This document shows, piece after piece, positions 12,566-56,400 of a DNA stretch of 64,000 bases. Below the pieces are notes generated by a model. The model worked only from the letters and a program-made list of their open reading frames with translations. It ran no database searches and was not told where the DNA came from. Position numbers and translations under genes: made by a program. This DNA is from an uncultured Planctomycetia bacterium. Lineage in GTDB: Bacteria; Omnitrophota; Gorgyraeia; 2-02-FULL-51-18. Where the stretch lies: assembly GCA_964642015.1 (NCBI GenBank), contig CAZXLF010000004.1, positions 20,738 to 84,737 of the forward strand, in the 5' to 3' direction. How positions within the stretch are numbered: position 1 is the first letter of the stretch; each line of letters opens with the position of its first letter.

Positions 12566-12572
12566 TATAAAT

Positions 12573-16647: not shown

Positions 16648-17526
16648 TCAGCGGAATCTTCTTTCGCGCATCTTAAAAAACCGGATCATCGAGTCGATGT
16701 AAGGTGTCCCCGTCTCAATCTCGATATGATCAAGTCCAACGGACGAGAAAACCTTGTCGCGATCTGCCCTGCGCTTCACCCATTCCTGTTTAAATTTATT
16801 CTTAAATCCTTTATTTGACTTTAATGTGAACATTTCTCCGGTCTCGGCATCCTGAAGCTCTACCGATCCTGTTAACGCAGGAAAATCTTTTTCGGTAGGA
16901 TCCTCGACGACCACTGCTATAAGGTCATGTTTTTTGAAAGCTATTTTCAAAAGTTTTTCATAATTCTCTGAGATAAAATCCGAGAACAGAAAAACTGTTG
17001 ATCGTTTTTTAACAGCGTCCGTCAATGTTCTCAAAGCGACGTTAATATCCGTGGCGCGATGCTTCGGTGTGAAATTCAGGATTTCACGGATCACGCGGAG
17101 TACATGAAGCTGACCCTTTTTCGGCGGTATGAATTTCTCCACTTGATCGCTAAAAACGATCAGTCCGACGCGGTCATGATTTTTGACTGCCGAAAATGCT
17201 AAAAGCGCGCAGATCTCGGCGATCAATTCCGATTTGGTCGTGCCGCGAGTGCCATATTGGCCCGAAGAGCTGGCATCGACAAGAAAAATAACGGTTAGCT
17301 CGCGCTCTTCAACGAATTTTTTCGTATAGGGATGGCCCATGCGCGCCGTAACATTCCAGTCGATGTCGCGCATGTCGTCCTGCGGGTCGTATTCGCGGAC
17401 CTCGTCGAATTCCATTCCGCGGCCTTTGAATACACTATGATATTCGCCGGCAAAGACCGTGTTAACTAGCCGCGAGGTCGTGATCTCGATAAAACGGATC
17501 TTTTTTAGAAGCTCTTTGGGAATCAT
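16648..17526 (-). CDS. DUF58 domain protein (MoxR-associated vWA-like)
   Basis: 292 aa. Characteristic DUF58 N-terminal region (…GEYHSVFKGRGMEFDEVREYDPQDDMRDIDWNVTAR…VIFLVDASSS). Confidence 0.8.
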   Translation of the reverse strand: MIPKELLKKIRFIEITTSRLVNTVFAGEYHSVFKGRGMEFDEVREYDPQDDMRDIDWNVTARMGHPYTKKFVEERELTVIFLVDASSSGQYGTRGTTKSELIAEICALLAFSAVKNHDRVGLIVFSDQVEKFIPPKKGQLHVLRVIREILNFTPKHRATDINVALRTLTDAVKKRSTVFLFSDFISENYEKLLKIAFKKHDLIAVVVEDPTEKDFPALTGSVELQDAETGEMFTLKSNKGFKNKFKQEWVKRRADRDKVFSSVGLDHIEIETGTPYIDSMIRFFKMRERRFR

Positions 17527-17629
17527 ATAGACAGCTCAAAACTTAAAAATAAAAAGTCAAAACAGAGATCAAAACAAAGACTATTGATCCGGCTTTTGTT
17601 CTGACTTTTAACTTTTCGGTTTTAACTTT

Positions 17630-18643: not shown

Positions 18644-18644
18644 G

Positions 18645-19031
18645 TTATTTGAGAACCTTAAACGATTTCTGGCCGAAAACATAATCATTCACATAGATCC
18701 GAAACTCATAATCTCCGGGATGATCAAACTTCACCGACATCAGATTAAAAACAAGCTCACAGTCGCGTGATTTATCCTGCACCCGGAAATCTTTAATCAC
18801 CGCGCGGTTCATTGATTTTTCCTCGGTTAGATCTACAAGCTCCAAAACAAAATCAAAGACCCCCTCGATCTCCCGGAATTGCACATAGACGCTCATGGCC
18901 GGGTGAGTGGTCGGAAAATTGGTGCCCTTGATCCGGTCGAACAATCCAATCAAAGTTCTCTTGTGCGTGCCATCCTCCACGATCGTCTGATCACAGAGGA
19001 GCATCGCTTTCAATATCGGTTTGATCTGCAT
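18645..19031 (-). CDS. hypothetical protein (128 aa)
   Basis: ORF with coding-like composition, directly abutting the downstream moxR and the upstream TPM gene. No family recognized. Confidence 0.45.
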   Translation of the reverse strand: MQIKPILKAMLLCDQTIVEDGTHKRTLIGLFDRIKGTNFPTTHPAMSVYVQFREIEGVFDFVLELVDLTEEKSMNRAVIKDFRVQDKSRDCELVFNLMSVKFDHPGDYEFRIYVNDYVFGQKSFKVLK

Positions 19032-38400: not shown

Positions 38401-41400
38401 AAGCGCTTCACCTTTATCATCCAATTTGACTTTGTGAAAATATGGCTGCGCGGCTTTACCATCGACAAGATTTTTGTAAAACCAAATCATTGTGCCCGGA
38501 ACTAAAAAGTAGATCGGGTCATAACGCTTGGTTCTGGTGTTCCATTTCCATTTTCCTACCGCTTGTTTCACATCGGTCTCATCGGGACTTAAAAATCCGT
38601 AAGCATAGATCTCCTTTTTGATACCTTCTTCTCTTTGACGGATATAGATAAAAGCCGTGTCGGCGCCTTTGGTGACTTCTTCGGATCGCAATTCCATAGG
38701 GCGATGAAAATTAACTGTCCTGTCTCCGATCCGGAACGCATAAAAGTTCGCCGTTTGGTTTTGTTGCCGCTCGACCTTCACCGCTCCGTCAAGAACAGGT
38801 ACGTCCTGTATTTTGAGGGTAGCCAATTTCAAGTGAACATGGCTGTTGCCTATAATAAAGCCCTTATCTTTTGAATAATAAAATGCTTTATATGCCATTG
38901 ATTGAGTGCTTGAATCAAAAATATGAACCCATAAGAAGCCTTTCGCATCTTGGCTGAATCGAAGAATAACCGGTCCTTGACCGGGTAGGCCGGGCTTAGG
39001 AACAATGATTCTGCGTTTGTCAGCTTTATTAGTTTCAAGCCGGAACAAAATCACAGTGCCTCGGACGTTTAACGCTTTTGAATATCCCGGCTGATCGAGG
39101 CCAAAATTTTTAACCAAATACGCGGCCGCTTCCTGATCCTTGTCGACAAAAGCTTTTTTCATTTTTTCTGTCAAAACGCGCCATTGAGAATCAGATATGC
39201 CTTCAGCTTCTTCACTTAATCTTGCGCCCGAAGTAGATTCGCTCAACATGACGACCAATTCATTTTGCAGATCACTTAATCTTTTATAGTGGGAAGCGAT
39301 ATAAGCCAGATCCCTTTTCTCGTTCTGGGCGATCTGCGATGCCTCATCGAGAAGTCTTTCGGCCTCGATCGAAATACTTAAAGCTTGATCTAATTTTCCG
39401 CGGTTAACCAATTCTTCCGCTTTTTCTATTGCTAGATCAAATTCCGACAGGAATCTATCGTGAGAACTTATGCCCTCAACATTTAAAGTTTCCAGCGGAA
39501 CAGTCTGGTTTAATGATTGTTTGATCCTTTCGAGCCGTATCCTGAACTCGGCGGATTCAGAAACCGGCTTGGAAGCAGCGGGCAATTGATTTTGAAGGCG
39601 AAGTGCCGCGTCTTTTCTCAAGTGTCTAACTGTATCAATAGTGACCGCACCGAATCTGCCTAAAATTTTTCGATGTTCAAGCTCATAAGCGATCGTCGCA
39701 TCATCGGCCTGTTTGGACCCGCCAATACCGTAAGTCATGAACATCACTTCCGCTTCAAGGAATGATAGTTTGCCAAAGCGTTCGATCACTCTGTCTTTTC
39801 TCACACCGATCTCCTTGGATAACCAATCAATGCCGCTGGGATAGAGATGGATCTTCTGACGTGCTTGCGCAACCAGACGTTTGAGATTGCCCGGCGAGAC
39901 AGGTCCTTTAGACCTGGCGTCTTTATAACCCAGGTCCCAAAGTTGACGGGCGATCTGAACCAGTGAAAGCTTTTCATCACCAAGAACATAAAAAAGCTCT
40001 ACGGCTTTTCTTTCCCGCAAGGTCAAGATATTCATACGGGTTTCCGTCAACTGCTCTCTTTTTAATTTGATATCATGGGCCAATACGTACCAGCCATCCC
40101 TTAAGGGAGGCCTGTTCTTTGTCAAACGCAGAGGCAATCTCAAATAATCGGCGCCAACACCTCCTGCGAGAAGATAATTGCGGAGCGTTTGGAGTGAGAT
40201 CCTATGAAGATGGGACAAAGAATTATCGTTGAATTCTTTGTCGCGATATTCTCTTACTTTCTTTTTTACTTCCTGGCCGATAGAACTAGCCAATAATCTG
40301 AAAACGACCCGGTGAGTGCCGATCCCATAGTAATTCTTAAGCAAGATCTGTACTCTTTCGGGCAATTGAGACAGCACCTGATCCGTGATCTTTTCAGATT
40401 CTACGCCGATCTTCGTAGCCAAAACCTCGCGGCCTGTTTTAACATCTTTAAGCTGCTTGACGGTTAAATAGCGTCGAAGTTGAAGTTGGGCTGGCGAAGT
40501 ATAATAACGATTACCCTCACCTTTGATGGCTTCGAACATCTTTTTGTAATCCCTGATAACCGGTCTGCTTATTCCATAATAATAAGAAAGAACCTGCCAT
40601 TGCTCGACAGGTATGGCGTAGATCAATTCTGAAGTGAGCTTCTCAACTGAGATTTTGGCATCAGCGGCCAAACGATTTAGAGCAACGGCATTTTCCTGGA
40701 AAAACCTGTCATCATACTTAGAAAGCCGTGCACCTAAGATGGATTCCATGCCTGATCCATAAGTCCGTGCAAATCCGGCCTTTATTTGATCATCGTTCAG
40801 GCTCGGCACTCTCCCCAAGAAAGCTGCCTGTATCAGATCGTATTCGGACCTTAATACAGATCGATCAGCATCTGCTTTGGCATATTCGAAATCGATGAAC
40901 GAAACTTGATTACTCTGCTCGTCCCAAAATATATTTTCGTTCGTGAGCTCGATCCTTCCCTTCATCTTGTTCTCAAAGCAGAGATCTCTATGTGTGATGC
41001 CTAAAGCATGTAAACGTCCCAAAGCAAACGCAACGGCGCCCATCAAATCCCGGCTTTTTTGTTTCATATCAGAATCTGTCAGTCGGCGGCCTTTGCTTAA
41101 CGTCGTTAAAAGCATGCCTGAAGCCGGTAGAAAATAGATCGGAGGCGCTAAATGATACCGGCCTGCCGACCGCGTTGTCTCATATTCATTAAAACGCTTG
41201 GCAGAATATTCCGGCGAATACAACTTCGTGTAAAAAACGATCTCGCCTTTATCGCGCAACGTCAGCTGGTGACGATAAACTGTTCTGCCGCTGACTGTTT
41301 TCAATTGAGTGAAATCATAATTTACGATATCAACCGGATCTGAAACGCGCGCGACGTGCATCAACGCCTCAGGTTCATCGTTGCCAAAAAATGCTTTGAA

Positions 41401-44400
41401 TTTTTCCTGCGCCAGCCGCGCGCCCGGCGGGTTACGTAAAACTAATTTCCATTTCTGTCCCTCTTCTTTACGAAAACCAAGAGTCTGCGCGATCTTGGAA
41501 GTTTGACCGTCCAAAGAAAGATCTTCCACTATAATATAGGCGACGTTGGGAGATTTCTTTAACGATTCCAGTGCTGCTTCGAATAATTTCCTTCCCAGGC
41601 CTCTTTGCCGATAATTGCGGTCTACCGCGATCTGAGTAATCTCACCCTCTTCGTTCCCCATATCAATGAATGTTCTGGCAAATCCCACGACTTTTCGTTC
41701 TTCATTGCGGACAACAAAAACCTCTCCCTCCACTTCTTCGTTCTCCTGCAAAATACCCTGCATGAAAAGCCACAACCGGCGCCTGTATTCTTTAACATCA
41801 CCGATCAATGGCCGATTCAGGAACGGCATATATTCGTTCTTCCACAGTTCTGCGATCTCATCAACGTCGTCCAATCTCGCCCGTTCAACGCGAGATCGCG
41901 AATCCGCTAGCCGGGCGCCAGACGAGACTGAGATGCCTGTCACAAAGTTTTCCGCCACTAGCCTCAATGGGTCTTGACGATAACTTTCCAAGAGCGGTGC
42001 AGCGGCCGGATTCATCCGTTCCAATAAATGCCATGTGACCTCAACAAAAAGTTTGACCATGGCTCCGTCCAAATAATAATGGCCTTGTGTATCATCTTTT
42101 ATCAGTTTGGCGTTCTTTGTACGAGCCAAACGAATGGATAAATTTGTATCAGACGTGGCAATAAGCGGGTCTTTTCCGCCTATTACAATGAGCGCGTTCT
42201 CCAGGCTTTTCAATCGATTGATATCTCTCCGCGGGATCGCAAGCAAAGGCATTTTTCTGACTATTTGCCAGAATGTTCCATTAAAAATATCTTGGAGCTC
42301 TCTGCGCATGACAATGATATTCATAGGATTCCAAAATGTACCGATAAGCGGAGTGTGCATGATTACTTGGGCAGCGGTTTTGATATTGCTATTCAGTAAA
42401 TGCAGGAAAATCGTATAACCGCCAAAACTAAAACCGGCCATTCCTATGCGTTTTGCATCTATACGCTGATCTTGGGCAAGAAATCTCAGAGAAGCATCGA
42501 CCGTCTCAGTGAGGTCCTGCGACGAATTCATTGGCGCCCCATTTTCGCCATGATGAGGCAGGTCGATACGCAACACGGCAAAACCCGTCCAAACCAAAAG
42601 TTTTTCCAATAAATTGAGATAAGGCTGCTCTTTGCTGTGCGTTAAGCCATGCAATAGAATGACCGCAGGCACCGGATGATCTTTCGATGCGTTTTCAGGC
42701 AGCACATAAAAACCGGGAATATCAGGTTTTTCGGGAAGCGGGATCCGCTGGTCAGGCAGGATCACGGGATTCATTCCGCTGCGGCGGTAATCCTCTTGCC
42801 GGCCGCTGACAAATAGCTCTCTCAATTCTCTCATTAAGCGCCGGCTGCGATTGGGCGAAAGAAGGTAGGTTGAAGCGATATACGCCATATTGGCTTTGAC
42901 CAAAGGATTTTGTTCGACCATCGCATGATAAGCCCATTCGCGTTTCCAAGCGTCATACCAGCCAAATCCGCTGCGGTTCAGGATCTCGATCAAAACCCTC
43001 CGTGCAGTAGCTCCATCAATACCATTGGCATGCGCCATTACATATTCATGTTTCGAGAACGCCAATTTCAGGCGCAATATAAAGCTTTCTTTTTCTGTTC
43101 TATAGTTGCCGGGTCTGACAACTTTTCGGGACTTTTCGGTAGTCACAAAGAAACCATCTTCTTCCAAGCTCTTGAACATGCGCTCGGAAAGAAGTGTGCG
43201 ACCCAAACTCGAACGAAATTCCTTGATCGTGCCGGAATCGAACAGTAACTTGACGGCACGCCGCATGAAACCTTCTTTTCCGACCCCGATCTTCATATAA
43301 TCCACTTGCATGGTACGACGGAAAAAACCTTTCAGGTCTGCTTTTGCCCACGCGACAACAACCGGATTCTTCGGATCAGTGATGTCAAAAACCAGCAACA
43401 GATCATGCCTTTTCTTCTCGCGCCTGAAATCGATCCCTTTTAAGATCACAACTTGAATATTGCTACCCAAATCCCTAAGGTCCCGAGCAACACGGTAATG
43501 TTTTGAAGAGGTAAGGCTTTTTATCTTGGCAAAATAAGGCCTGACATCCATCCTTTCTTTTCTTGGTGTTTTGTAGATGTTGGCCAGCCGCGCGCCTTCT
43601 GTTATAAGTCCGCCTTTGACACCGATAATGCTGTCTTGGATATACCGGAACGATCCCCGCAAGGATCGGTCTTCTATAAGATGCACTGTATTCAAAGAAT
43701 AAACTGCGCCGGCCGCTTTGATCAGTTCTTTTTGCACAGCTTCGGTCATTTCGCGATTCTCTTGCCCTTTATAACCGGCAAGTCTGGCTCCGCCTACGAG
43801 AGAATTTATACTGCCGTCTAGGTAACCTCCTTCAAAAACTTCCTCTACTTGAGACCGGGCCAGTTCAGGTGCAGCTTCTTTTACCACTAGCAGCAGATCA
43901 CGATATTCATCTTCCCTTCTAAGATTCGTCAATCTTTTTGCGCCGCCAAAATCAATGAACTTAATATTTCTTCCGTCCCAATAAAAATGATCCCTCCGGA
44001 GAAAAAGCCTAGGTACAAATGCAAAAGCGCCCTTGTTCAATGCATCGCTATAATCAGCACCGATCAAATCGTTATGCACAAATCCGGCTTCATAATGCAA
44101 GCGGCCTAGCGCAAAACCGATCGCTCTCACGATCGGGAGCGTGATCTGAACCAAAGGAGCTGATGGGGGCAAAGTCTGCGTTTCATCCGGACCCAATAAA
44201 ACTCCGTCGGATTCCTCTTGGGACAGAAAAACAATTTTGTTTTCGGTATCGATCAACAGGCTTTTTGGAGCAAGCCCATATTGATGGATCACGTTTGTAA
44301 TCTCGGCTTCGCGTTTCAAAGAGAATTCAGACCAGGTCTTTGCCAGCCATCCTATGACAGGTATGTCGTATAAAAGACCGTAATATTCTTTCGAATAAAA

Positions 44401-47400
44401 TTTGAATGTTCTTATTGCTCCGCTCTGATCGCGGACCGCCAATTGGTGCTCATTGACCGATCTAACAGCAAGCCATGCTCTTCTTTTGGATTGAGCTGCG
44501 ATGCCGTAATCAACAACGGATAACATCTGATCCGAATCTGTTAAAAATCGAAGCACATCCGATGAACGCTCACCAAATATCCTATAGAATCTGATATCAG
44601 ATACTTGTTCGTTATACATAGCAAGCCGTGCGCCACTGTCTTTTTCAAAATCAAAAACTTGCTGAACTGATTTTTGTTCAGGCATTTGAGTTGAGCGATT
44701 AAGATCAGCGATAATCTGAATAATATCGATCAGTTCTTGCCGAAGATCTCTCAAAGCACGTCTCTGATTCCAGCGAATATTCCAACGAAGCACCGTCTCC
44801 ACCGCACGGCCTAAATTTTGCAGATCACTAATGCGGATTTGTTGACCTGATCTGATTCTTTGACGGAGTGCTCCGGCGGCATTTCTCAGTTTGTAGGAAT
44901 TCAAAGTGAAATTAGATGCTCTTCTGACTACTGCTCTGATCCGTGATTCAATTTCCGTTTGACCCGCTAGGCGAGCGCCCTGCTGTTCTTTGCGGGCTCG
45001 AATCCGTTCATTCACAGTTTTCATAAAAACAGGCAGTTTGGATTTTGCGATGACTCCAATTTCGCGTTTTATCGCTTCTCCGATACCAAGCTGCTCTGCA
45101 TCGGCTGTAAGTGATCGCGCGCGGTCCATGAATTCAGCTCTATCGTCAATCCGGCGCAGGGCATTAACATTTTGCCGTAAGATCTTGGCGGGGTCAGGAA
45201 CTGCAACCGGCTCCAGTTTCTTTGGACGTTTTTCTGTCAAAGCGGCAGATGGCTGGGGCGACACTTCCTTAGCGGTGTGGGGCTTCGCTCTTTCCTCGGC
45301 AACAAACTGCGCAAGATCAAATTGATGTTTGCTCTTCCAACTGAAATAACGAGCCCGGGACTGTTTAGAGTCAGCAAGCCCAAGGCCTTTTAAGACCATT
45401 TCTTCCGTGACTTGCTGATCGGCTGGTACACTTGTAATGATCGCGCGGATGCGATTGTAACGCTGCGTTTTTTCAATCATTACCATCATGTCCCGCACTT
45501 CGGGACGGTCCTTATGAACTTCAAACCATCTCCACAATTCTGTCTGAGAAACTTTATCCGAGGCCTGAATAGTAATGGTTCGTGCAAGATTTCCCATGTT
45601 GATCTCTTCTGTCGGCTGTGTAGTCAGCAAATAAATGATCGCACTCCGCGCAGCTTCAAGTCTCATCTGATAACCGCTACTATGTTTCTTCTCCAAACTT
45701 TTCCGCATGATATCAATAGGCTGAGTCCACTGAATACCCAACGCTTCAAGAGAAGCCGGCTTCAAACTATAGACCTGGCTCATCGTAAGACCTGATCTTT
45801 CGGACAAAGATTTTGGATCAATAGGAATAGATGCTGCCTTCATTTCGGCAACAATAGGTGTTAATATTCGAAGTTTCTGTTCGTCTTTCAGTCTTTCGGA
45901 AGCGAGCCGTGCGCCAGACTTGTCTTCAGCATTTCCGTTGGACACTTGAGAGGCTTGATCTCTGGCAAAAAGGACCGATTTCAATGCCAAAATATCCGCA
46001 GCCGTTCTCCAGTCCGTGTCGTATTGTTTTCGTACATCGTCGACGTTGTTCACAGCGTTCGTCAAACTATCTTTGAGCTTTTCGATAACGATCTCTCTCG
46101 GCCACCTTTCGTTAAAAAGATTCTGCTGCCATTCATAAAATGATACGGTAACACCTCCGGCATTAGCGATAGAATCAGGAATCACGATGCTACCGGCCTG
46201 AAGTAATTTTTCATAAGCCTCATTTGAAATAGCCCCATTAGCGCCTTCGATCACAATATCCGCGTTCAACTTTTGAACATTTTCTTTGGTAATGGAATTT
46301 TCTTTAGCGTTGGCATACATGATAAATGTCTTAAGGTCTAAGAACTCATCTCTAGAATTTAAAAGGCGCGCGTTGTGTATTGTATATTCCGGCTTTGAAT
46401 TCAAGCTCGCAAATCCATTCGGGGCTGCCTTTAGACGAAGTAACGTTTCGATGTCTTTCTGATTGAAACCAGATTCCAAATAAATAATGCCTGACATTTC
46501 GGCGATCGCCTGAAGCTTGATCCCGTCTTTGATGGCTTCAAGCGCGGCAGGGATGCCCACTCCGCCAAGGCCTTCCATCTTTGCCGTCATTCCTTCCAGA
46601 CGATTCCATCCCAATTCCAGACCAACGATCGTTTTTAATACATGTTCAACGCCAAATCCCGTTGATTCAGGACGAAAATGCGATCCCGCATGATCAACAT
46701 CAATGACCTCGGCGCCTGTGACATCCTTTTTAACCAACAATGTTTTTGATGTAAATGTGGCCAGGCTGATCGCTAATTGACCCAAAACCGAATTTTCCTG
46801 AACAGGGTACCCTGTTTGTCTCAGAGACGTAAAATATTTAGCGACAACAGTCAGATAGGGGGTCTGCGTCATTGCCTGCATTCTTTTGCTACGATAATCG
46901 CTTTCGACCTGGTCCAAAAGTTGCTGTAGATCTCTGGGATACGCTTGAAATTCTGTTCTCTTCCCATCGGGCATCGGCGTTTCTCTGGCTTTTTGGATAT
47001 GCAGTTTAAGGTATTCATCCGTCATGATATCCATATCCGCCGCCGTGCTTCCCATGTCGGGCGCCGGAATATCGGTGCGCGGTCCTACTCTGCCGGCCTC
47101 AAAGAGGGCTTGTATGAATCGCCTGATGAAATCTGCTCTCAACCGACCGCTTGTCTCCCTGTCTAATCCCTGACTATAATCTCTGATCACAAAAGATCCG
47201 TTTTCTTGCTCAACATCGGCAAATAAAATAACTCCTTTAGCTCCTCCATAGGGTAATTTAGCAGCAGCCGACTTGATCGTCATGCCTACTGCAAGCGCTT
47301 GGGTTTCTTCTCTGACCCATTTGCGCAAAAAATACCTCAATTCGTAAATATTCATTCTCGCGCGGAATTGATTGAATAATTCCATGAACCCCTCATCGGA

Positions 47401-50400
47401 TCCTAACATCCATGCGTATATAAAACGGATCCCGCCCTTGCCGGGCCCGCGTGCAATATTATGAACATCGCGAATGAAAAGAGGGTGGACATCAGTCCCT
47501 AAAATGTTGATCTTTATCTCAGGCTGGAAGTGATTGTAGAAACTTCTAATATAAGCATCGTCATCTTTCGAAAAGTTCCCGACATCGATCGCTTTTTCAA
47601 TACGGCTTTGGGCCGGGGTCGCACCTCTGGTAACACTGGACTCTCCGAGAAAAGTATGCAGGAACGGGTTTTGGTACCTGGGATCCAACTTTAAAGCTGC
47701 AAAATTTTCTTCACGGATCCCAAGTTCATTGAGCTTCCCACGGGCCTCATTGATCAGAAGGATTGTTTCTTGTGTATCGCGAACGGATAAAAACCCTCGG
47801 CCCTGTTGATTTGGAACGACGCGCTTTCTATAACCGGGAGGGAAAAGATGAGTAAGATCGTTCTTTTTTAATTGAATATCAGACAATAGGTCCAGAAGGC
47901 CCCGTTCTATGCGGACATGATGCATCTCCTGCTCGACCCCTTGTCTGTCATTAATACTTATATAAAATACGTCGCCGCCATAGAGCGCGCTCAAAAGCGC
48001 GTCGATCAGCACATATTGATCCGAACCTTTTTCAGGAAAATGTCTAACAATCTTGTCGATACGTTGGACCTCAAAATGCGGACTCTTCCTAGCCGCCAGA
48101 CGTGCGCCGTTGCTGGGCGCTTGAAAAATCCTGGGCGGATTAACTGATCTGTCCAATTCATCATAGATCCTAAGCGCTTCAGATCTGACTTGGCGGATGA
48201 CCTTTTTGTTTTCCAAGTGATCTGTACTGATCTCGTGCAGTTCAAGCATTTCTTCCATCCAATCACGGAAATGGTCCCCACGGGCGAGACCATTTACAAA
48301 AAGCGCCTGCTCATCAGCGGAAAGCAGTACCTTTCTGCCTTTTGCCAGCGGAAGCATGCCGTGTCTCAGATCATAAAGCGCTTTGATAAACTCGTTGTAA
48401 CGTGTCTCACGCAAAAGCGTTTTCAAAAAAACCAAGTAGCGGTGTGTAATGATCATGCCTGAATCGACGCCGCGCAGCTCGGACAATAATTTATTGATAT
48501 CCCGATTGATCCTGATCGCCAGCATAAAATCGCCGAAAGCAAGCGCGCGGTTCACCAAAGCGCTGGCTTGCTTGTCAAGATCAACGATCCTGACGCGGTC
48601 TGTACGGAGCGTTTCGTCGCTGGCGATATCTTTTTCCAGCTTTTTGAAATCCCGACGGAGTTCCGATCTTAATTTAAATAATTTCCATTCCTCGGATATG
48701 AGAAGAGGGATCTGTTTCTTCCAGAAGAGCCATCGGAAATACGGCACCTTCAATTCATCAGGTTTTTTGGCTTCCCAATTCCGGTCAAAATCATCCAAAC
48801 GCTTCTGGATCTCATTTGGTTGAAGACCTTGACGCATCAGCAAATCATGGTAGTTGTGCCACTCTAGAGAATAACGCAGTACAGACCCGGCAATCTTCGC
48901 TTCCACCTCATTTTCCATGTTGAGTTTTGCAAAGTAAGGTACGGGTATATAAGTCAAACGACGAAGCTGGCTGTTCCTGACAATGCCGGCCTGATAAGCC
49001 GTCGAAAGTGTCGGACCCAAAAGATCGGTCTGTGTGAAAACACCCATGATCATCAATGTCTTGCGCGCGTCCGGCGGAAAATATCTTTCGATCAGATAAT
49101 CCACATTGCGTTTGGCTCTGAGGTATAAAGCTTCTTCTTCGGCTGTTAAACGGGTGAGGGGCTCATTTTCATTGAAACGAATGCTGTATTGATTCAGATC
49201 ATCAACGATCAGGGCTTTATCAAGACGCCGTATGATACTTTCGATCTGACGGTAAGTCTGGAGATTCCATTCAAAATAAAGATTCGGATAAAGATAACTG
49301 ATAAAATCAAAACCTGCCTCAAAACGCGCCGTGAGAGATCTTGTCGATTCATTTGCAGGCTTAATGGCCGGCAGCGAAATGATCTCGTATTCTTTCCAGT
49401 CATCATTTTCAGTCAATTGGCGAATGCCTACCGCATAACGGCGCCGTGCTAACCCAAAACTTCCAAAAAATAAAACAGCGTTGATCACGTTGTTATTGTA
49501 TGGGGACATTCCGTTGGTCTTGAACCGGATCTTCTCGTACGGAGTTGAGGTCAATCCAAACATGAGCAATCTGCTATACATTCTAAGTTTGGAAAAATAT
49601 TGGACCATCCATGACTCTTGAGACCGGCCATTAGGATTTGGTTGATTAGGCGCCGATCCGGAAGCCAACCGTGCACCAGCCGAGGAACTGATTTCTCCTT
49701 CAAATATTTTAGCGAATTCTCGTCCTTCAAGTGTCAATACATAAAGATTAGAAGACCTGTCGGCTTTTTTTCGGTCTCTTGCCTGCTCAATCCGCACAAA
49801 AAGTTCCGCGCGGGCCCGTTTCAGCAAACTTTCTATTCCACGCTCGCCAACCCCCGCCAAAAAGGGAGCGGTATTTAAATCCTGTAAAGTGAATACGCCC
49901 TCTCCATGCTGTTGTCTCATCCACACCAGCAGCCGTTTAAAATTTTCGCTAAAAGTCGGTGGTACATTGACAGCGCGAGGAAATGAAGCTGCGATTCGCT
50001 TGCCTTCCTCTGTCAGCACATATCGATCTTCGCCTGTTAAGGGATCCGATTGAACCGCGGCGGTCAGATTTTGTTTTCCGGTCCTCTCGAACCATCTGAA
50101 GCTCGGACTGATCCCTTGTTCATACAAAGCTCGTCGTGTGAATGGTAAATCCGAAAAACGGTTTGCGACCGCATGAAGCCAGTGATCAAATCTTCCTACA
50201 TATTGCTTCTCGACGGATACCCTTTGTTTTCTAACACCCAAATCTTCATAGTCAAAATTCGAGTTCGCCAGAAGATCATAAAGCGCGGTTACTGTAAATG
50301 TTCCTTGCGAAGCATCGGCTACTTCCTGCAACGTCGGTTTATATTCCGCTTCGCCGTGCGCGGTAGCGATATTCTCTGAGATCGCTTTGACTTGTTTAGC

Positions 50401-53400
50401 CATCGCATCATATCTTCTGGGATCTCGAATACCTAAAACAGCATAAGTAACAGAATGGGCCCGCCCATACGGCCCATTAACAAGCGTATAAATATTTTTT
50501 ACCGTGATGCGTCCACTAGATGCTTCGGCAACTTCGCGCACCGAAGGCAAATAACCGGGATCATTTTTTTCTGAAACAAGCTGCGCAGTGATCCTTTGAA
50601 TATCGACGACCCATTGCTCGGGAGCTTTCGCCATTCTAATTCCCAAATCTTCTTCAGGATCGATATGAACGCCTTTTGCGCGGTAACGGTACAGCAAAGT
50701 ACTGAGACTGCCCGTCGTGATTTCTCCTTCTGATGCTTCTTCGATTTCGACCGGCGTCGGGCGGTAATTGGGGTCACCTTTTTCCACGGCTATTTTCCTG
50801 GCTATTTCCCTGACACGCTCAACGATCTCGGCTGCCTGGACTCCTCGCATGCCGACAGAACTATAGGTGATCCCTGCTGGTTTAAGGCGATTGAAGAGCC
50901 TCCAGATGAATTTTGTATTCACTTTATTATCGGATGCTTGCACGATCTCATCGATAGTAGGCCGATAATCAGGTTTGGATCTCTCATGTCGGATCTGATC
51001 AACCAGCGTTTTCAAATAGTCGATCCATTCAACATCATCATGCATAATCCCAGAGGGCCCCGTATTTGGAGCGTAACCGTAAGGAATTTTGTTATCCGAC
51101 ATCGCCAGGATTATCCGCCGTTCCGTAAGAGGATGAGCATAACGCTTGGAAACCTCTACAACACGGCCGGGCGTAGCGTTTACACCTTGCGGCACTTGAG
51201 ATGCAAGCGCATTGAACAATCTGATCCACTCTTCACGGCTTTTATTCGCTTGAGCCAATACCGCATCGACGGCTTGATCATCGCTGTTGAATTTATACTC
51301 CAATTTCTGCGCTTCTTTTCTGAATTCACCGCGCGCCGCATCAAAACCCTCTCTGTCAACCTTCGCAATAGCTTTCGAACCCAGGTCAATATACTTTCTC
51401 AAAGAAGCATTTTCTTGCGTAGCACCCCCGACATTATGCTCCGAAGCCCAATGAAGAATATCGGCGAGCCTTAATTCGTCCTCGATCATGGTGTCATACA
51501 TGATCTTTCGGGATTCATATTCGGACACGATGAACTGAAAATTCCTCAATTGGGCAAGATCAAACAAGAGATCAATGACTTCCGTTTCTTGCGCATTGAA
51601 TGATGCATCAGGGCCCGTCTGACGTTCATGCCGCACTGAAAGGAATTCGGCCAATTCATCAGGAACAAAGCGCTCCAAAAAGGTATTTCCTTCCAAATGA
51701 TCCATGCCCTGGAAAACGCCGGGAAAACTTCTCCTTGCCGTGCGTGCCTTGACTTGCTCTTCTACGGCGCTAAGCCTGTTGCGATAGGTGCTCAAGATGA
51801 CCAAGCCCGCGACGCTCTTATTTTCATTGAAAACCTGAACCTCCTTTTGGGCAGCAAGAGATTCATCCAATTTGATATCGTACCCGCGGGTTCCTACTTG
51901 CGCGACTATGGTGATCGTGAACGGTTCGCCGGTCCTGTGTAAGTTTTGCTGATCAGCTTTATTATTGAGACCTGTCACAGTTCTGACGGACGCTTTAGTT
52001 TTTAAAAACGGTTTCTGTTCGTCCAGCTGCAGCAATAAACCCACGATTTCTTTGGCTTCTTTCGGTGTTTGGCAATTCACGATGATCGGTTGCCCTGTTC
52101 CATAGATCGCCGAAACAGCCGATACAAGATCGTTGATCTTTTTATCCCGCGTAAGATAATACCGATTCGGCCAATTTTGGCGGTTATCCTCGTGTATACG
52201 CTTGAAGTCTATGAGCTTAAGTCCGTAATATTGGATCAGGAAACCTCTCGTGAGATCATCAGCAACTCCCGTCACTCCGCTTACGAAACCAAAACGGTTA
52301 TAGGCATAAGCCATTGTGATCAAAGATAGTGGCCGGCTTTCTAAGCGGACGCGGACCGCTTCATTTCTCTTTAAGCTTTCTTTGGCCTCGATAAAACTCT
52401 GAATGCCCAGCTGAAGACGCACTTCATTCTCCAGTTCTCCGGTAATTCGATTACGCAGTATGACTAAACCGTCCTTGACGACATAATTCACGTCATCGTT
52501 GTAAATTGCATAAGCAACCATGGCCGCTTGAAGCAGTTCCGCCACATTGGCATGACTCAGAAAATCATTCGCTTTTCCATTTCCCATGTGAGACTTGAGC
52601 GCAGGTTCGGAAGTCCGAAGCAGATTTTCGAAAGCGGCCATAAGTTCGGTATTCTTACGAGGAGTCAACACAACGCTTTCGCCTTTGATAACGTAATCTT
52701 TCGGCGTAATATTTGCTTCGAGAAGTTGATAAGCTGTTTTATAGAATTTTTCAATTTCAGGATGTGCCGGCCCCCAATATTCGGATGAGATCTGCGGTTG
52801 ATTTAGAACGCCGAAAAGAGGTGTATCCGCCTCTTCTATGAATATCGCCGGCTGAGAAGGATGGATCTTGTTTTTCCGGGCCTCGAACCAATCCTCTCTC
52901 CAATAGTGAGTAAGCTCCGAAAAAGGCCCGCATACGATATCTCCGTCATGGAATGCCTTTGAAATCGATTCAAATCTATCGGTAGTTGCATCGCCGTTTT
53001 TTACACTTTCTAAATGCGGATAATGAAGTGTCCCATTCTTCTTGGCCACAGTCCCTTCAAAAGGACGCTTATTCAGGATCGCGAAAACCCGCAAACCAAG
53101 CGGAACCATAATCACGGACATTAGCTGAGAATCTCTGGCGGTAAGACCGTTGTCCCAATCATGTACTTCTACTTTCGTGTCGTTCAAAGCTTTAAGATAA
53201 GAAGCGAGCGCTACGGTAAGAGTTTTACCTTCGGATGTCGGCATGATCACCAATTGATGGTTCTTCAGCAAAAGGATCGCGGCCGCTATCTGATTCTCAG
53301 TCGGCGAACCCCCAATATGGGCGGCGATCAATGAATTAACGTTCGGATCATGCGAAAAAGATTCTTTTTTGGAATCAAATTTTACTTCGTTCATATCAGG

Positions 53401-56400
53401 GCCTCGCAGATCTAATGATTCGCCCCCATTCTGAACAGTCACAGAATAATTCTTAGGAAGATCCGAGTAGACTATTTTTCCTTCTTTAAGGATCACGGTG
53501 GCGCTGATCTTTTCCGGCAACTTCAGCAAAAATCGGGTGTGAGGAGAAGTGATCCTGGACGTCCGTTCACTGAATAAAGCAATGGCCTCGGCCAACCCGT
53601 CCTCATCCGGTTCTTTGCCTCTCCAAATTGCCCTCAAAGCGACTCCTTTATCCAGCAACGCTTTGTCTGTTTGCCCATGTAGGGCTTTCTCATAGGTCTT
53701 CGCTTTTTGAATGATACGCTGTACATCTTCTTTCTCCGCCGGAGCTAAAAAAACTTTTTCGGGAGCAGCATGGCCAGTCTTCATTTCTCTTGCTATGTCC
53801 GCTTTCAATTTTTTAGATAAAACTGAAATGCCGTCTTGTGTCAAATGCTCTTCGGATATCTTTCTTGGTGCATTTTTTGCTAGTCTTGCACCCTCATTTT
53901 TAGCGACCAGCCGGTCGAGTTGATTTTGAATAGACTGGATATCATTAAGGAGGCGCTGTTTCAATTTTTCCTTGGACGTCGGCGAGTTAAATAACCGCCC
54001 GGCTTTGACCATTAACTCCAGCCGGGAAACAAGAAGAGGGTTTCCGGAAGAATAAACTTTCGTGTTCGTTTCATTAGGCAGATCAACATTGAATAAGCCT
54101 AATTTAACGGTGCTTTCGGTCACTTCGTTCGTCTGATCATCGAAACGATAAAGATAATAAACATCAGAGTCTGGTCTGCGTTTGACAACAACAGCAATCC
54201 CTTGAGGAAGCCTGCCGAACGCCACAAACTCGGCCTGATTCATATCTTCCACATCTTTTTTCAGAAATGCATAATTTTCTCCGATATTGATCGAGCCCTT
54301 TTGCTCTATTTCCGACCGTTTATTGACATGAGAGATCAGGAATTGAGCCGCTTTCTTTTGATGGGCCAATTGCTTTTCAAATGTATCGAATGGATTGAAT
54401 GGAGAAGCATTTTCTTCCTCATGAGCTATTGTCGCAGTAGCTCTCCAGATGATAAGCTGTTCGAAACCGCCATGCGAAAGCCACCAATACGCTCCGCCGG
54501 CGGCTAATACAAAAACACTGATCGATATCAAAAAAACGCGCTTAACAGTATTCCTAGCCAACCGAGCGCCGAGATATCTTTCAAATTTTATTACCAAATC
54601 GAGTGTCAAAGATTTCCCCTGCAATTGAAATAAGTGATCCTGGGCTTGATTCAGTTGTTGATCCGCGTGACCGATCCATGCTTTGACTAGAGCAAACGTA
54701 TCCAATCCTTGAATATCGGGAAAGATCTCGATTAACGTTTTAAAAAGATTGGGCAAGAGAATGGTCATTAGCTGGATCGAGTGAATATCATGGGATAAAT
54801 TCATCAGAGATCGGCTGAATACATCGAACGCTACTGTCGCAGGCAGTTCGGTCTTCTTCTCACTCAGTGTTTTCAGAACGGACTGAATGTCGTTGTTGAT
54901 GCGATCGATGCTTTCAAAATAATGATGAACCAGTCCTCGCGAGCTAAGTTTATAAACTAAATCCATGAAACTAAATGCGCTACCCACATGCAACGTGAGA
55001 TTCCCTTGCAACATGTCACGCATTTCTTTTTCATTTAAGAAAGATCTGGCCTGGCTCAAATATACAGCAGCAGAATCCACAGAAATTCTTATATTGTCGA
55101 TAAGCTTACCGGCTTGGCTTAGTAATTGTTCTTTATTGAATTCTCCGCCCGCTAAACGCGCGCCGGAGGAAAAATCATTGTTCTTAACTATAATGTTGTA
55201 CCCCAGCCATGCGGGCTCTGAGCCGCCGGCCTGCGCGTTGACTGTGTACTCATTAACACCTTTAGGAAGTCGGTATTTAAATCGGATGCTGGGATGATCT
55301 TCATAGGCTTCCACAAACGTAGCGGGATATGACCCCCATTCACCGGGCAATTGATTGCCGGTATTATCAACTCTTGGATGATAAAACGTAAAAGCGACTT
55401 TATGCGCATCCATCTTTCTATCAAGATTGACGGTCCAATAAACTTCTCCGTTCTGATCGGGAGTTTGCGCACCATTTTCCAGTTCGGGCCAAGGGTTTCC
55501 AAAACTTCTGATCTCAGCGACGTCCACGACCCCGCGCAAGTTGGTCAAAGCCCTCGCCAAACGCGACAGCGGTCCATGCAACCTGAGCAATAGATTCCGA
55601 TCGTCCATGGAAAGAGAAGCGTCTTTGTTGATTTGCTCTACCACCTGGTCAATCATGGTCCTAGAGTCATGAATAAGATAGGCGTATTTGTCCCTGAAGT
55701 ATTTGTCCGTGAATTTGGCATCCTGCGGTTGGGCCTCAATATCTTTGGCCAAGTCATCCAATTGGTCCCAGGTCTTCAAAATGGGCATTGTGATATAAGG
55801 GACGTCGAAAATTTCGGCGGTCGCATTTTTTCTGGTTTTTAATATGGATTCTATTTCTTCATAAGCGCCCTTCAATATTTCTCTGGCATAAGAAGCCTTC
55901 TGCTGCAGCGATCTCGGCTGCTTGAAAAAACGCCGGATATCCAGGCCTTTTCCAGGAAAGGTCACTTGGATAAAAATAAACCGCTCGGTATCCTTTTTGT
56001 AAAAGACAAGCCACGATCGGCGGGTCATATTCAGCGGCGCTTCTTTGGATAAAGAGAATCTCGAAGCGACTGATTCCGGGATCTCGAATATCAAACCAGG
56101 CCTGTTGCGATAGTTTGTCGCGTCATGGTGAACCAACGCATCAGACAACGGCCTCCAAACAGAACTTTCCGCTGAAAGAACACGGTGATTTTGGAGAATG
56201 CTGTTCAAATTTTTTGATTCGCGATCAAGAGAGATCCCCATGTATAGATTTTCGGACCGATTGGAGGGATCTAGATATTCTGAATGTTCATATTCTTCGT
56301 AATGACGGATCAGATTGTTCACTGATTCCTGTGAATCGATCACGGGAGGAGGAGCAAGCTCCTCGTCACTTTCTGCTGCTGCCAAACGCGCACCGGACAA

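What the first reader, a model, noticed from the sequence alone, without database searches (positions are those of the whole stretch)
46020..47500. Complete glutamate/leucine/phenylalanine/valine-dehydrogenase-like domain inside the giant protein
Both halves of the ELFV dehydrogenase fold are present. These are the substrate domain (GPGKGGIRF, catalytic K in PYGGAKG) and the NAD(P) Rossmann domain (GLGGVG…). A central-metabolism oxidoreductase embedded in a >10-kaa protein is highly atypical. It may be a recruited NAD(P)-binding or ADP-ribose-binding module rather than a metabolic GDH.
Basis: partly seen in the sequence, partly recalled or inferred. Interest (0 to 1): 0.7.

Follow-up and report, generated by a model that had tools for sequence, protein, structure and literature searches.

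The report
Glutamate dehydrogenase module in a giant polyprotein
A complete glutamate dehydrogenase that looks catalytically intact sits inside an 11,236-residue bacterial protein as one of about 31 enzyme-sized modules, each bounded by the same five-residue motif (G-A-R-L-A), which suggests the giant protein is cut into separate enzymes.

Summary
Window 45940-47616 (-) encodes a full ELFV/glutamate dehydrogenase fold (Pfam E 5e-46 and 1e-19; AF2 pLDDT 93; TM 0.81-0.86 to hexameric GDHs) inside one 11,236-aa ORF. All catalytic and glutamate-specifying residues are present. They are near-invariant in 61 related modules embedded in large proteins, so the "cofactor-binding only" reading is not supported. 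The embedded modules separate from free-standing GDHs in a tree, share three domain-I insertions and are almost free of cysteine.

The context matters more. The motif G-A-R-[L/F]-[A/S/T] occurs 30 times in the ORF (about 0.3 expected) with varied codons. It never falls inside a recognised domain, and it brackets GDH (aa 4006-4737), GNAT, AceK and others. Related proteins carry different motifs (RSESR, ASSLG, RFAE, GLEE) at equivalent positions. The proteins share a signal-peptide-like N-terminus and a TIKI/ChaN-fold head domain with a conserved His/Glu constellation.

Best reading: an active GDH module of an exported, polyprotein-like precursor that is probably released by proteolysis. Cleavage, export and activity are inferred, not shown. 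Metabolic enzymes in giant Omnitrophota proteins are known. I found no report of this GDH clade or the junction motifs in the two preprints read or in my literature searches.

The parts
26413..60123 (-). Giant ORF of 11,236 aa (stop codon included in the coordinates). It holds only 6 Cys, and 30 junction motifs split it into 31 modules.
45901..48108 (-). The GDH module as delimited by two junction motifs (aa 4006-4741). It consists of an N-terminal extension, the GDH core and a short tail.
   Evidence: The BLAST homology blocks to P0001 and to the Omnitrophota ORF L002 start and end at these limits.
48094..48108 (-). Upstream junction motif GARLA (aa 4006-4010).
47617..48093 (-). N-terminal extension of the module (aa 4011-4169). 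It is conserved with the module in homologues and has no family match.
45940..47616 (-). Complete glutamate dehydrogenase fold (aa 4170-4728): substrate/oligomerisation domain I, Rossmann domain II and the C-terminal helices.
47422..47448 (-). GPGKGGIRF. K4229 is the equivalent of K89, which binds the glutamate gamma-carboxylate.
47233..47283 (-). MTIK...PYGGAKG. K4284 is the K113 equivalent and K4296 is the equivalent of the catalytic K125.
47056..47067 (-). PAPD. D4356 is the equivalent of the catalytic D165.
46555..46572 (-). GLGGVG dinucleotide-binding motif. The acidic residue E4542 at the end of beta-2 lies at 46498-46500.
46141..46167 (-). ANAGGVTVS. N4654 and S4661 are the N373 and S380 equivalents; S380 specifies glutamate.
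47314..47406 (-). Insertion 1 (aa 4240-4270, helical), shared by the embedded clade.
47161..47217 (-). Insertion 2 (aa 4303-4321, beta-hairpin), shared by the embedded clade.
46762..46983 (-). Insertion 3 (aa 4381-4454, helical bundle), shared by the embedded clade. An extra hairpin at aa 4462-4475 (46699-46740) is nearly unique to the window protein (about 3% column occupancy in the other embedded modules).
45901..45915 (-). Downstream junction motif GARLA (aa 4737-4741), 9 residues after the last GDH helix.
59992..60123 (-). Signal-peptide-like N-terminus (aa 1-44). It has a basic n-region, a hydrophobic core and the sequence SYA|N. It was judged by eye and by a hydropathy heuristic only.
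58486..59946 (-). Conserved head domain (aa ~60-546) with a TIKI/TraB/ChaN/EreA-like fold. Invariant residues are H92, E120, E173, R461 and H489. It is followed by the variant junction GARFA at aa 579 (58375-58389).
51634..53331 (-). SecA-like motor (DEAD, preprotein-binding and second P-loop domains) with no scaffold/wing domain detected. It lies inside module 2078-3483.
41464..41886 (-). GNAT acetyltransferase, bracketed by junctions at aa 6069 and 6234. An alpha/beta hydrolase at 42304-42747 lies in module 5510-6069.
29755..31440 (-). Full-length AceK (isocitrate dehydrogenase kinase/phosphatase), bracketed by junctions at aa 9551 and 10138. A second AceK-kinase-like module lies at 31699-32223.

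Best explanation
The region encodes a complete NAD(P)-dependent glutamate dehydrogenase that is very probably active (L-glutamate <-> 2-oxoglutarate + NH4+). It belongs to a distinct GDH clade that occurs almost only inside large proteins. These proteins are nearly free of cysteine, and many carry a signal-peptide-like N-terminus. In this protein the GDH is module 10 of 31. The modules are separated by a strictly conserved short motif, G-A-R-[L/F]-[A/S/T]. The module (aa 4006-4741) consists of a ~160-aa extension, a GDH core with three clade-specific insertions in domain I, and a short tail.

I infer that the motifs are proteolytic junctions, probably cut after Leu/Phe. The giant chain would then be a polyprotein precursor from which GDH, AceK, GNAT, a hydrolase, a SecA-like motor and other modules are released as separate enzymes. 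The conserved N-terminal TIKI-fold head domain is the most obvious candidate protease. I further infer, more weakly, that the precursor is exported from the producer's cytoplasm.

Shown here: the fold, residue conservation, clade structure, motif statistics and motif positions. Inferred: enzymatic activity, cleavage, the identity of the protease, and localisation.
For: GDH identity: Pfam, PDB and NCBIfam all point to the GDH superfamily. The AF2 model has pLDDT 93 and matches whole GDH chains at TM 0.81-0.86.

Active site: K89, K113, K125, D165, R205 and S380 equivalents are kept in 55-61 of 61 embedded modules; N373 in 47 (Ser in 11) and the third GxGxxG glycine in 50 (Ala in 11).

Distinct clade:
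- One NJ bipartition puts 59 of 61 embedded modules on one side. Across bootstraps the best split places 115.6 of 121 sequences correctly on average.
- The window's 14-member subclade is recovered in 98 of 100 bootstraps.
- Shared insertions change the spacing between catalytic residues: K89-K113 is 56 vs 24 aa, K125-D165 is 60 vs 40, and D165-R205 is ~108 vs 40.
- The embedded modules have a median of 0% Cys against 0.97% in free GDHs (p = 4e-15).

Junction motif:
- It occurs 29 times as GARL[AST], plus one GARFA, against 0.35 expected and a maximum of 2 in 200 shuffles. It is encoded by many synonymous codons.
- It occurs 0 times in 7,950 aa of neighbouring ORFs, and no site lies inside any Pfam domain.
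- It brackets GDH, GNAT, AceK, the SecA-like region and the head domain.
- Its flanks are more polar and disorder-prone than random positions (z = -3.1 and +5.2).
- Only 5 of 31 modules are paralogous, so the motif is not part of a repeated domain.

Equivalent junctions elsewhere:
- In a 65% GC Omnitrophota ORF (L002) the GDH homology block 164-846 lies between GARLA sites at 164 and 840.
- Other lineages use RSE[SV]R, [AS]SLG, [RH]FAE or GLEE at the same relative positions. Both GDH copies of P0135 are bracketed this way.
- The joint chance of a site lying within 15 aa of the GDH C-terminus in 12 cases is about 1e-15.

Head domain:
- It is conserved at the N-terminus of many of these proteins.
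- D90-x-H92, E120 (28 residues after H92) and H489 are consistent with, though not structurally aligned to, the 2His/2Glu catalytic motif of that family. H92, E120 and H489 are invariant; position 90 is D in 9 of 12 sequences (PMC6254334).

Export:
- 28 of 52 embedded-clade proteins that start with Met have signal-peptide-like N-termini, against 0 of 58 free GDHs.
- The giant protein has 0.05% Cys against 0.90% in its neighbours. Cysteine exclusion is a known trait of exported proteins (PMC2823432).
Against: There is no biochemical or proteomic evidence for activity, cleavage or export.
- The module scores far below every NCBIfam GDH equivalog cut-off (163 vs 620 bits), so it is not an orthologue of a characterised GDH.
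- The three insertions lie in domain I, which builds the hexamer in canonical GDHs. Their effect on assembly is unknown.
- The deep single-origin split is only moderately supported. The exact bipartition is recovered in 20 of 100 NJ bootstraps, and long-branch attraction is possible.
- Some relatives (P0127, P0130, P0200, P0224) show no over-represented motif.
- NAD(P), ATP and acetyl-CoA enzymes would be useless in a periplasm, which argues against simple export. The signal-peptide call is a hydropathy heuristic, not SignalP.
Confidence: 0.6

Rival explanations
1. Uncleaved, membrane-tethered metabolic scaffold. The giant chain stays intact, anchored by its N-terminal hydrophobic segment with the bulk in the producer's cytoplasm. 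The GDH works in cis next to AceK, GNAT and the other modules, as a fixed-stoichiometry metabolon. The GARLA motifs would be structural linkers or docking motifs rather than cleavage sites.
For: All recognisable modules use cytoplasmic cofactors: NAD(P), ATP and acetyl-CoA. The 2026 preprint reads many long Omnitrophota proteins as inner-membrane-anchored with cytoplasmic enzyme content. Only 2-3 hydrophobic segments occur in 11,236 aa.
Against: Basic residues precede the hydrophobic segment and acidic residues follow it, which favours an N-in/C-out topology. A 17-fold cysteine depletion relative to neighbouring cytoplasmic enzymes is unexplained by a cytoplasmic location. A strictly conserved 5-residue motif that changes identity between lineages yet keeps its position is typical of a recognition site, not of a passive linker. 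Short proteins made of a signal peptide plus a GDH of the same clade exist (P0139, P0150).
Confidence: 0.25
2. Non-catalytic recruited module. The GDH fold is kept only as an NAD(P)- or ADP-ribose-binding, sensing or scaffolding domain.
For: The sequence is divergent and falls below all GDH equivalog cut-offs. There are large insertions in domain I. GLGGVG replaces the usual GFGNVG.
Against: The substrate-side residues (K89, K113, K125, D165, R205, S380) have no role in dinucleotide binding, yet they are kept in 55-61 of 61 embedded modules. The model retains both domains and the cleft.
Confidence: 0.08
3. Amino-acid dehydrogenase with another substrate (Leu, Val, Phe, Trp or similar) rather than glutamate.
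For: ELFV family members are hard to tell apart from a profile alone. There is a weak NCBIfam hit to tryptophan dehydrogenase ScyB (E 5e-8, far below cut-off).
Against: The Lys and Ser that bind the glutamate gamma-carboxylate (K89 and S380 equivalents) are present. To my knowledge they are replaced by hydrophobic residues in Leu/Phe/Val dehydrogenases. The best PDB and NCBIfam matches are all GDHs, whereas PheDH matches only at E 4e-6.
Confidence: 0.05
4. Artefact: the giant ORF is a mis-assembly or a run of separate genes fused by sequencing errors, and the GDH is really a free-standing gene.
For: The window derives from a metagenome assembly, and only the two ends of the gene are independently confirmed.
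Against: The ORF runs 33.7 kb without a stop codon, and composition is even across it. Independent Logan contigs match both ends at 100% identity. Dozens of unrelated assemblies carry the same module inside ORFs of 1,500-5,900 aa. No start codon or SD-like spacing is conserved at the junctions, since their codons vary.
Confidence: 0.02

Closest known systems
Small hexameric glutamate dehydrogenases (e.g. Thermotoga maritima 1b26/2tmg, Thermococcus profundus 1euz, Arabidopsis GDH1 6yeh)
   Same: The whole two-domain fold matches (TM 0.81-0.86 normalised to the target). All catalytic and glutamate-binding residues, the GxGxxG motif and the acidic residue after beta-2 are shared.
   Different: Identity is 23-26% in the structural superposition and about 30-39% in local sequence alignments. 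Three insertions (31, ~19 and ~74 aa) in domain I and a ~160-aa N-terminal extension are added. There are no cysteines. The domain is embedded in a signal-peptide-bearing giant protein between junction motifs. It scores below all NCBIfam GDH cut-offs.
Large GDHs of the 115/180-kDa classes (Pfam PF05088 Bac_GDH; known to me from Streptomyces, Mycobacterium and Pseudomonas)
   Same: They are a precedent for a GDH catalytic core flanked by long extra sequence within one polypeptide.
   Different: They are a different family: PF05088 does not match here. They are ~1,000-1,600 aa cytoplasmic enzymes, with no junction motifs, no other enzyme modules and no signal peptide. I did not compare them directly.
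Giant proteins of Omnitrophota (West-Roberts et al. 2023, bioRxiv 10.1101/2023.11.21.568195; 'multi-enzyme metabolic clusters' in bioRxiv 10.64898/2026.06.07.730766)
   Same: It is a very long ORF tiled with unrelated enzyme domains. It has divergent SecA DEAD and preprotein-binding domains without the scaffold/wing domain, a GNAT domain and N-terminal targeting features. The named relatives of its head domain and GDH module include Omnitrophota MAGs.
   Different: Neither paper mentions GDH or AceK domains, cysteine depletion, a TIKI-like head or recurrent junction motifs. West-Roberts et al. state that cleavage points are unknown. This protein (11 kaa, ~2 TM-like segments) is small and TM-poor by their standards. 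The window's own taxon could not be established.
MARTX toxins and large clostridial toxins
   Same: They are giant exported proteins carrying an array of unrelated effector enzymes that are released by cleavage after Leu in inter-domain linkers (PMC2900308). MARTX arrays include an alpha/beta-hydrolase effector and a TIKI-family endopeptidase, RRSP (PMC6254334).
   Different: No RTX repeats and no C80 cysteine-protease domain are detected, and the protein has almost no Cys. It has an N-terminal signal-peptide-like segment rather than a C-terminal T1SS signal. Its junction motif is far stricter. Its cargo consists of central-metabolism enzymes (GDH, AceK). This is a resemblance in mechanism only, not membership.
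Viral polyproteins with protease-specific junction motifs
   Same: Many unrelated functional units are encoded as one chain. They are separated by a short recognition motif that differs between lineages together with the protease.
   Different: This is a cellular, chromosomal gene among housekeeping genes. The protease has not been identified.

Membership tests
ELFV (Glu/Leu/Phe/Val) dehydrogenase superfamily | Both Pfam domains (PF02812 N-terminal/dimerisation and PF00208 NAD(P)-binding) score above their gathering cut-offs | tested here: met
   70.6 bits against a cut-off of 25.3, and 157.9 bits against 23.4.
ELFV (Glu/Leu/Phe/Val) dehydrogenase superfamily | Two-domain fold with a cleft between domain I and the Rossmann domain | tested here: met
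   AF2 pLDDT 93.1. Foldseek against the PDB gives E ~1e-29 and TM 0.81-0.86 over whole GDH chains.
Glutamate-specific dehydrogenase (EC 1.4.1.2-4) | Catalytic Lys and Asp (K125, D165) plus glutamate-binding K89, K113, R205, N373 and S380 (C. symbiosum numbering, from memory) | tested here: met
   K4229, K4284, K4296, D4356, R4484, N4654 and S4661 are all present. Each is kept in 55-61 of 61 embedded modules, except N373, which is kept in 47 of 61 (Ser in 11).
Glutamate-specific dehydrogenase (EC 1.4.1.2-4) | Measured glutamate/2-oxoglutarate activity and cofactor preference | not testable with these tools
E4542 after beta-2 is compatible with NAD(H), but I did not try to predict specificity.
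Orthologue of characterised GdhA/GdhB (NCBIfam equivalogs) | Score above the curated equivalog cut-off | tested here: not met
   The best matches are NF041398 at 162.8 bits (cut-off 620) and NF040817 at 158.7 bits (cut-off 750).
Hexameric GDH quaternary structure | Domain-I surfaces able to form the 32-symmetric hexamer | not testable with these tools
   Only single-chain prediction was available. Three insertions lie in domain I.
Large GDH (PF05088 Bac_GDH) | Match to the Bac_GDH profile | tested here: not met
   No PF05088 hit at E <= 0.01 on aa 3900-5000.
SecA-domain giant proteins of Omnitrophota (West-Roberts 2023) | Very long ORF with SecA_DEAD and SecA preprotein-binding domains but no scaffold/wing domain | tested here: met
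   PF07517, PF01043 and PF21090 match at aa ~2265-2830. No SecA_SW hit is reported. The ORF is 11,236 aa.
SecA-domain giant proteins of Omnitrophota (West-Roberts 2023) | Encoded by an Omnitrophota genome | tested here: inconclusive
   The window's contig (218 kb, NCBI) carries no name in the look-ups. Named relatives come from Omnitrophota, Planctomycetota, Eisenbacteria and Elusimicrobia MAGs.
MARTX / CPD-processed toxins | RTX repeats and an InsP6-activated C80 cysteine protease domain | tested here: not met
   No such Pfam hits anywhere in the ORF. The whole protein has only 6 Cys.
Polyprotein precursor | Recurrent short recognition motif located at the boundaries of independently folding units | tested here: met
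   30 sites against ~0.3 expected. None lies inside a domain. They bracket GDH, GNAT, AceK, the SecA-like region and the head domain. Lineage-specific motifs sit at equivalent positions in relatives.
Polyprotein precursor | Demonstrated proteolytic cleavage at those sites | not testable with these tools
   This needs proteomics or in-vitro processing.
TIKI/TraB/ChaN/EreA superfamily (head domain, aa ~60-546) | Parallel beta-sheet core fold shared by the superfamily | tested here: met
TIKI/TraB/ChaN/EreA superfamily (head domain, aa ~60-546) | 2His/2Glu catalytic constellation (PMC6254334) | tested here: inconclusive
   H92, E120 and H489 are invariant, D90 is mostly conserved, and the H92-to-E120 spacing of 28 equals H3902-to-E3930 in RRSP. 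I could not make a residue-level structural superposition, and there is no sequence-level PDB hit.

The most novel reading that the evidence does not exclude
The giant gene encodes an exported effector polyprotein. A Sec-type signal and an in-built SecA-like motor take a cysteine-free chain of 31 modules out of the cytoplasm. A TIKI-fold head protease, or a partner enzyme, then cuts it at G-A-R-L|A junctions. The released whole enzymes, including an active glutamate dehydrogenase and an isocitrate-dehydrogenase kinase/phosphatase, act inside a host or prey cell to rewire its 2-oxoglutarate, glutamate and NAD(P)H metabolism. Related lineages would use the same design with co-evolved cleavage motifs (RSESR, ASSLG, RFAE, GLEE). 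This would be a previously unrecognised, widespread bacterial polyprotein and effector-delivery system.
Probability: 0.2. Interest if true: 0.9.

Novelty: new variant of a known kind. Interest (0 to 1): 0.74.

Why it matters
Giant bacterial genes are a recognised puzzle. The key paper states that it is unknown whether their products act as one chain or are cut up, and that the lack of known cleavage points blocks analysis. This protein offers explicit candidate junctions: 30 copies of one pentapeptide placed exactly between whole enzymes, with different but positionally equivalent motifs in relatives, plus a candidate protease domain. That makes the question testable by proteomics or a simple in-vitro assay, and it gives a rule for splitting such giants into units for structure prediction. 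For enzymology, it defines a clade of glutamate dehydrogenases that keep a full active site, have lost their cysteines, have gained three insertions, and travel with signal peptides. That implies GDH chemistry is used outside the producer's cytoplasm, possibly against another cell.

Tried and rejected
- Taxonomy of the window. Exact look-ups of neighbouring proteins returned unnamed NCBI/Logan records only. The single genome-contig scan found relatives but not the source genome.
- Word-indexed homology search with an alignment of embedded modules. It was swamped by free-standing GDHs and returned only two embedded fragments. The exhaustive representative search was the informative one.
- Head-domain profile search. 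It gave only 25 proteins, mostly contig fragments.
- PDB sequence searches of aa 1-2300 and of the head-domain profile. Neither gave a relevant hit.
- Literature searches for GDH, AceK or SecA in giant proteins and for 'GARLA'. Nothing relevant turned up. No supplement was held for the 2023 preprint, and the single held supplement file of the 2026 preprint had no hit.
- The afdb50 fold library was unavailable.
- Promoter and terminator scans at both ends of the ORF were no better than chance.
- Motif as a DNA repeat: rejected, because the codons differ.
- Motif as part of a duplicated domain: rejected, because only 5 of 31 modules are paralogous.
- Lipoprotein signal: rejected, because there is no lipobox.
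- CPD-type autoprocessing: rejected, because there is no C80 domain and almost no Cys.
- P0273 (614 aa) as a free-standing version of the embedded module: rejected. It is an ordinary cytoplasmic-type GDH with an insertion in the Rossmann domain.

Full report
**1.

The window contains one open reading frame on the minus strand, 26413..60123, of 11,236 codons. Its TTG start is preceded by AGGGGGA. The three quoted motifs are at aa 4226 (GPGKGGIRF), 4291 (PYGGAKG) and 4518 (GLGGVG).

- Pfam places ELFV_dehydrog_N at aa ~4217-4371 (E 1.3e-19) and ELFV_dehydrog at aa ~4480-4721 (E 4.7e-46).
- The nearest solved proteins are ordinary hexameric glutamate dehydrogenases (T. maritima 2tmg, E 3e-36).
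- An AlphaFold2 model of aa 4190-4730, built on an alignment of 15 related modules, has mean pLDDT 93.1 and pTM 0.90.
- The model superposes on entire GDH chains with target-normalised TM-scores of 0.81-0.86.

The domain is therefore complete and real.

**2. The active site is intact and under selection**

I aligned 61 GDH modules taken from proteins longer than 600 aa with 60 free-standing GDHs. The equivalents of K89, K113, K125, D165, R205 and S380 (C. symbiosum numbering, from my memory) are each kept in 55-61 of the 61 embedded modules. The Rossmann glycines and N373 are slightly less strict: the third GxGxxG glycine is kept in 50 of 61 and N373 in 47 of 61. The free enzymes keep all of these in 56-60 of 60.

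The window protein has all of them: K4229, K4284, K4296, D4356, R4484, N4654, S4661, GLGGVG, and E4542 after beta-2. The substrate-side residues play no part in dinucleotide binding.

The module is nevertheless not an orthologue of any characterised GDH. Its NCBIfam scores are about a quarter of the equivalog cut-offs.

**3. It belongs to a clade of GDHs that live inside large proteins**

An exhaustive HMMER search of 1.84 billion representative proteins returned long proteins as its best hits. These were P0121 (5,841 aa, 57% identity, a complete ORF on its contig), followed by proteins of 2,571, 4,070, 3,478 and 2,717 aa. In all, 58 of the best 148 hits exceed 600 aa.

Genome hits include MAGs labelled Omnitrophota, Eisenbacteria and Elusimicrobia, all with the module inside ORFs cut by contig ends.

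In a neighbour-joining tree, one bipartition holds 59 of the 61 embedded modules. The exact split is recovered in only 20 of 100 bootstraps, but the best split averages 115.6 of 121 sequences correctly divided. The window's own 14-member subclade is recovered in 98 of 100.

Shared insertions support the grouping independently of the tree:

| Segment | Embedded clade | Free GDH |
|---|---|---|
| K89 to K113 | ~56 aa | 24 aa |
| K125 to D165 | ~60 aa | 40 aa |
| D165 to R205 | ~108 aa | 40 aa |

The model folds these insertions confidently as helices and a hairpin. All three are in domain I, which builds the hexamer in canonical GDHs. I could not test what they do to assembly.

**4. The surroundings change the picture**

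Besides GDH, the giant protein carries several other recognisable domains:
- a SecA-like motor without the scaffold/wing domain (aa ~2265-2830);
- an alpha/beta hydrolase (aa ~5793-5940);
- a GNAT (aa ~6080-6220);
- weak, below-cut-off kinase-like matches;
- a partial and a full-length AceK (aa 9301-9475 and 9562-10123).

While inspecting the sequence just after the GDH C-terminal helix in homologues, I noticed a recurring ...GARLA... In the window protein, G-A-R-L-[A/S/T] occurs 29 times, against 0.35 expected and a maximum of 2 in 200 shuffles. One GARFA variant lies directly after the head domain.

Several properties mark this as a functional junction motif:
- The sites use many different synonymous codons, so selection acts on the peptide rather than the DNA.
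- The motif is absent from 7,950 aa of neighbouring ORFs.
- No site lies inside any recognised domain.
- Its flanks are more polar and disorder-prone than random positions (z = -3.1 and +5.2).
- Only five of the 31 inter-motif segments are paralogous, so the motif is not part of a repeated domain.

The sites bracket whole enzymes closely:

| Unit | Flanking junctions (aa) |
|---|---|
| Head domain | start to 579 |
| SecA-like region | 2078 to 3483 |
| GDH | 4006 to 4737 |
| GNAT | 6069 to 6234 |
| AceK | 9551 to 10138 |

The limits 4006 and 4737-4743 are also where BLAST homology to P0001 and to the Omnitrophota ORF L002 begins and ends.

**5. The junctions are conserved in position but not in sequence**

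In L002, from a 65% GC genome, the GDH block 164-846 lies between GARLA sites at 164 and 840. P0121, P0123, P0124, P0126 and P0129 also use GARL-type sites.

Other lineages have their own over-represented motif:
- RSE[SV]R in P0122 and P0128;
- [AS]SLG in P0135, P0186, P0234 and P0264;
- [RH]FAE, 17 times, in P0166;
- GLEE in P0174 and P0151.

In these proteins the motif again sits 60-180 aa upstream of the GDH core. In 11 of the 15 motif-bearing homologues the next site lies within about 18 aa of the GDH C-terminus. Exceptions are P0123 (+280), P0264, P0166, P0174 and P0151 (322-433 aa downstream). Both tandem GDH copies of P0135 are bracketed. The chance of a site falling within 15 aa of the GDH C-terminus in all 12 cases examined is about 1e-15.

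A short motif that keeps its position while changing identity between lineages is what one expects of a recognition site that co-evolves with its enzyme. The simplest such reading is a polyprotein cleavage site. A hydrophobic residue before a small one (L|A, F|A, L|G) recalls the after-Leu processing of MARTX and clostridial toxins (PMC2900308). There is no C80 protease here, however, and almost no cysteine.

**6. A shared head domain is the candidate protease**

Residues ~24-546 are homologous to the N-termini of many of these large proteins. Invariant positions are H92 (in LIQDAHxNxxAQ), E120, E173, R461 and H489 (in GG[FY]H).

That family uses a 2His/2Glu constellation (PMC6254334). The D90-x-H92 ... 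E120 ... H489 pattern matches it, including the 28-residue His-to-Glu spacing. This is suggestive, not proof. The fold also occurs in esterases and haem-binding proteins, and I could not superpose residues.

**7. Evidence for export**

- The window protein and its relatives begin with a basic stretch, a hydrophobic core and an AxA-like site.
- By a simple hydropathy rule, 28 of 52 embedded-clade proteins that start with Met have such N-termini, against 0 of 58 free GDHs. Two short proteins (P0139, P0150) consist of little more than a signal peptide and this type of GDH.
- The giant protein has 6 Cys in 11,236 residues (0.05%), against 0.90% in 25 neighbouring ORFs.
- The embedded GDH modules have a median of 0% Cys, against 0.97% in free GDHs (p = 4e-15).
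- Cysteine exclusion is a documented trait of exported proteins (PMC2823432).

One thing argues against simple export: GDH, AceK and GNAT need NAD(P), ATP and acetyl-CoA. If the chain leaves the cytoplasm, the enzymes would make sense mainly inside another cell. That is speculation at this point.

**8. Comparison with what is known**

Giant Omnitrophota genes with divergent SecA domains, and 'multi-enzyme metabolic cluster' giants, have been described. A metabolic enzyme inside a giant protein is therefore not new in kind.

Neither paper's main text mentions GDH, AceK, cysteine depletion, a TIKI-like head or junction motifs, and the one held supplement file had no GDH/AceK hits. West-Roberts et al. 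state explicitly that cleavage points are unknown and that whether the products are cleaved is an open question.

The genomic context is ordinary housekeeping: PanE, IlvD, a PFOR-like gene, a Bat/MoxR operon, glycerol kinase and a split transketolase. The window's taxon could not be determined.

**9. Verdict**

The 'binding module' interpretation is not supported.

The best-supported reading is an active glutamate dehydrogenase of a distinct, cysteine-free, insertion-bearing clade. It is carried as one motif-delimited module of an exported, polyprotein-like giant precursor.

- Shown: fold, residue conservation, clade structure, motif statistics and motif positions.
- Inferred: activity (likely), cleavage (about even odds), the head domain as protease, and action outside the producer (both less likely than not).

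Noticed in passing
window 26413-60123 (-), 30 sites; e.g. 48094-48108 and 45901-45915: The pentapeptide G-A-R-[L/F]-[A/S/T] recurs 30 times in the giant ORF (about 0.3 expected) with varied codons. It always falls between recognisable domains. Relatives carry other motifs (RSESR, ASSLG, RFAE, GLEE) at equivalent positions.
   Followed up: yes
window 26413-60123 (-): Extreme cysteine depletion: 6 Cys in 11,236 aa (positions 35, 387, 388, 2398, 2684, 6382), against 0.90% in the neighbouring ORFs. The same holds for nearly all large proteins that carry this GDH clade.
   Followed up: yes
   Followed up: partly
window 54481-54570 (-), aa 1852-1881: One junction motif is followed directly by a basic stretch and a hydrophobic helix (GARLA-RNTVKR-VFLISISVFVLAAGGAYWW). 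If cut there, that module would start with its own signal or anchor-like segment, just upstream of the SecA-like module.
   Followed up: no
window 29755-32223 (-), aa 9301-10123: A full-length AceK (isocitrate dehydrogenase kinase/phosphatase, E 4e-107) is preceded by a separate module that is a paralogue of its kinase half. The 2026 preprint reports no glyoxylate shunt in 176 Omnitrophota genomes. If this organism is an Omnitrophota, which is not established, AceK's canonical role would not apply.
   Followed up: partly
window aa 5164-5444, 6234-6463 and 8805-9036 of the giant ORF (about 43792-44634, 40735-41424 and 33016-33711): Three modules are paralogues of each other. Two of them (aa 6234-6463 and 8805-9036) show weak Bud32/RIO-like kinase matches, far below the cut-offs.
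   Followed up: no
P0135 (aa 735-1266 and 1435-1984) and P0225: Some relatives carry two GDH modules in one chain, each bracketed by that lineage's own motif. Other relatives carry hexokinase, malate synthase, glycogen phosphorylase or GHMP kinase domains.
   Followed up: partly
window 9849-18688 (-): A complete Bat/MoxR-type operon: MoxR AAA+ ATPase, DUF58, an unannotated ORF, two BatA/VWA proteins, a TPR protein, BatD and a further TPR protein. These envelope proteins are also Cys-poor (0-0.6%), in contrast to the cytoplasmic enzymes in the window.
   Followed up: no
window 1516-3362 (-): Transketolase is encoded as two separate adjacent genes, one for the N-terminal TPP-binding part and one for the pyrimidine-binding and C-terminal part.
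   Followed up: no
window 61337-62197 (-) versus 61391-63154 (+): A 286-aa ORF with no family match lies antisense within the PFOR-like gene. It is probably not a gene.
   Followed up: no
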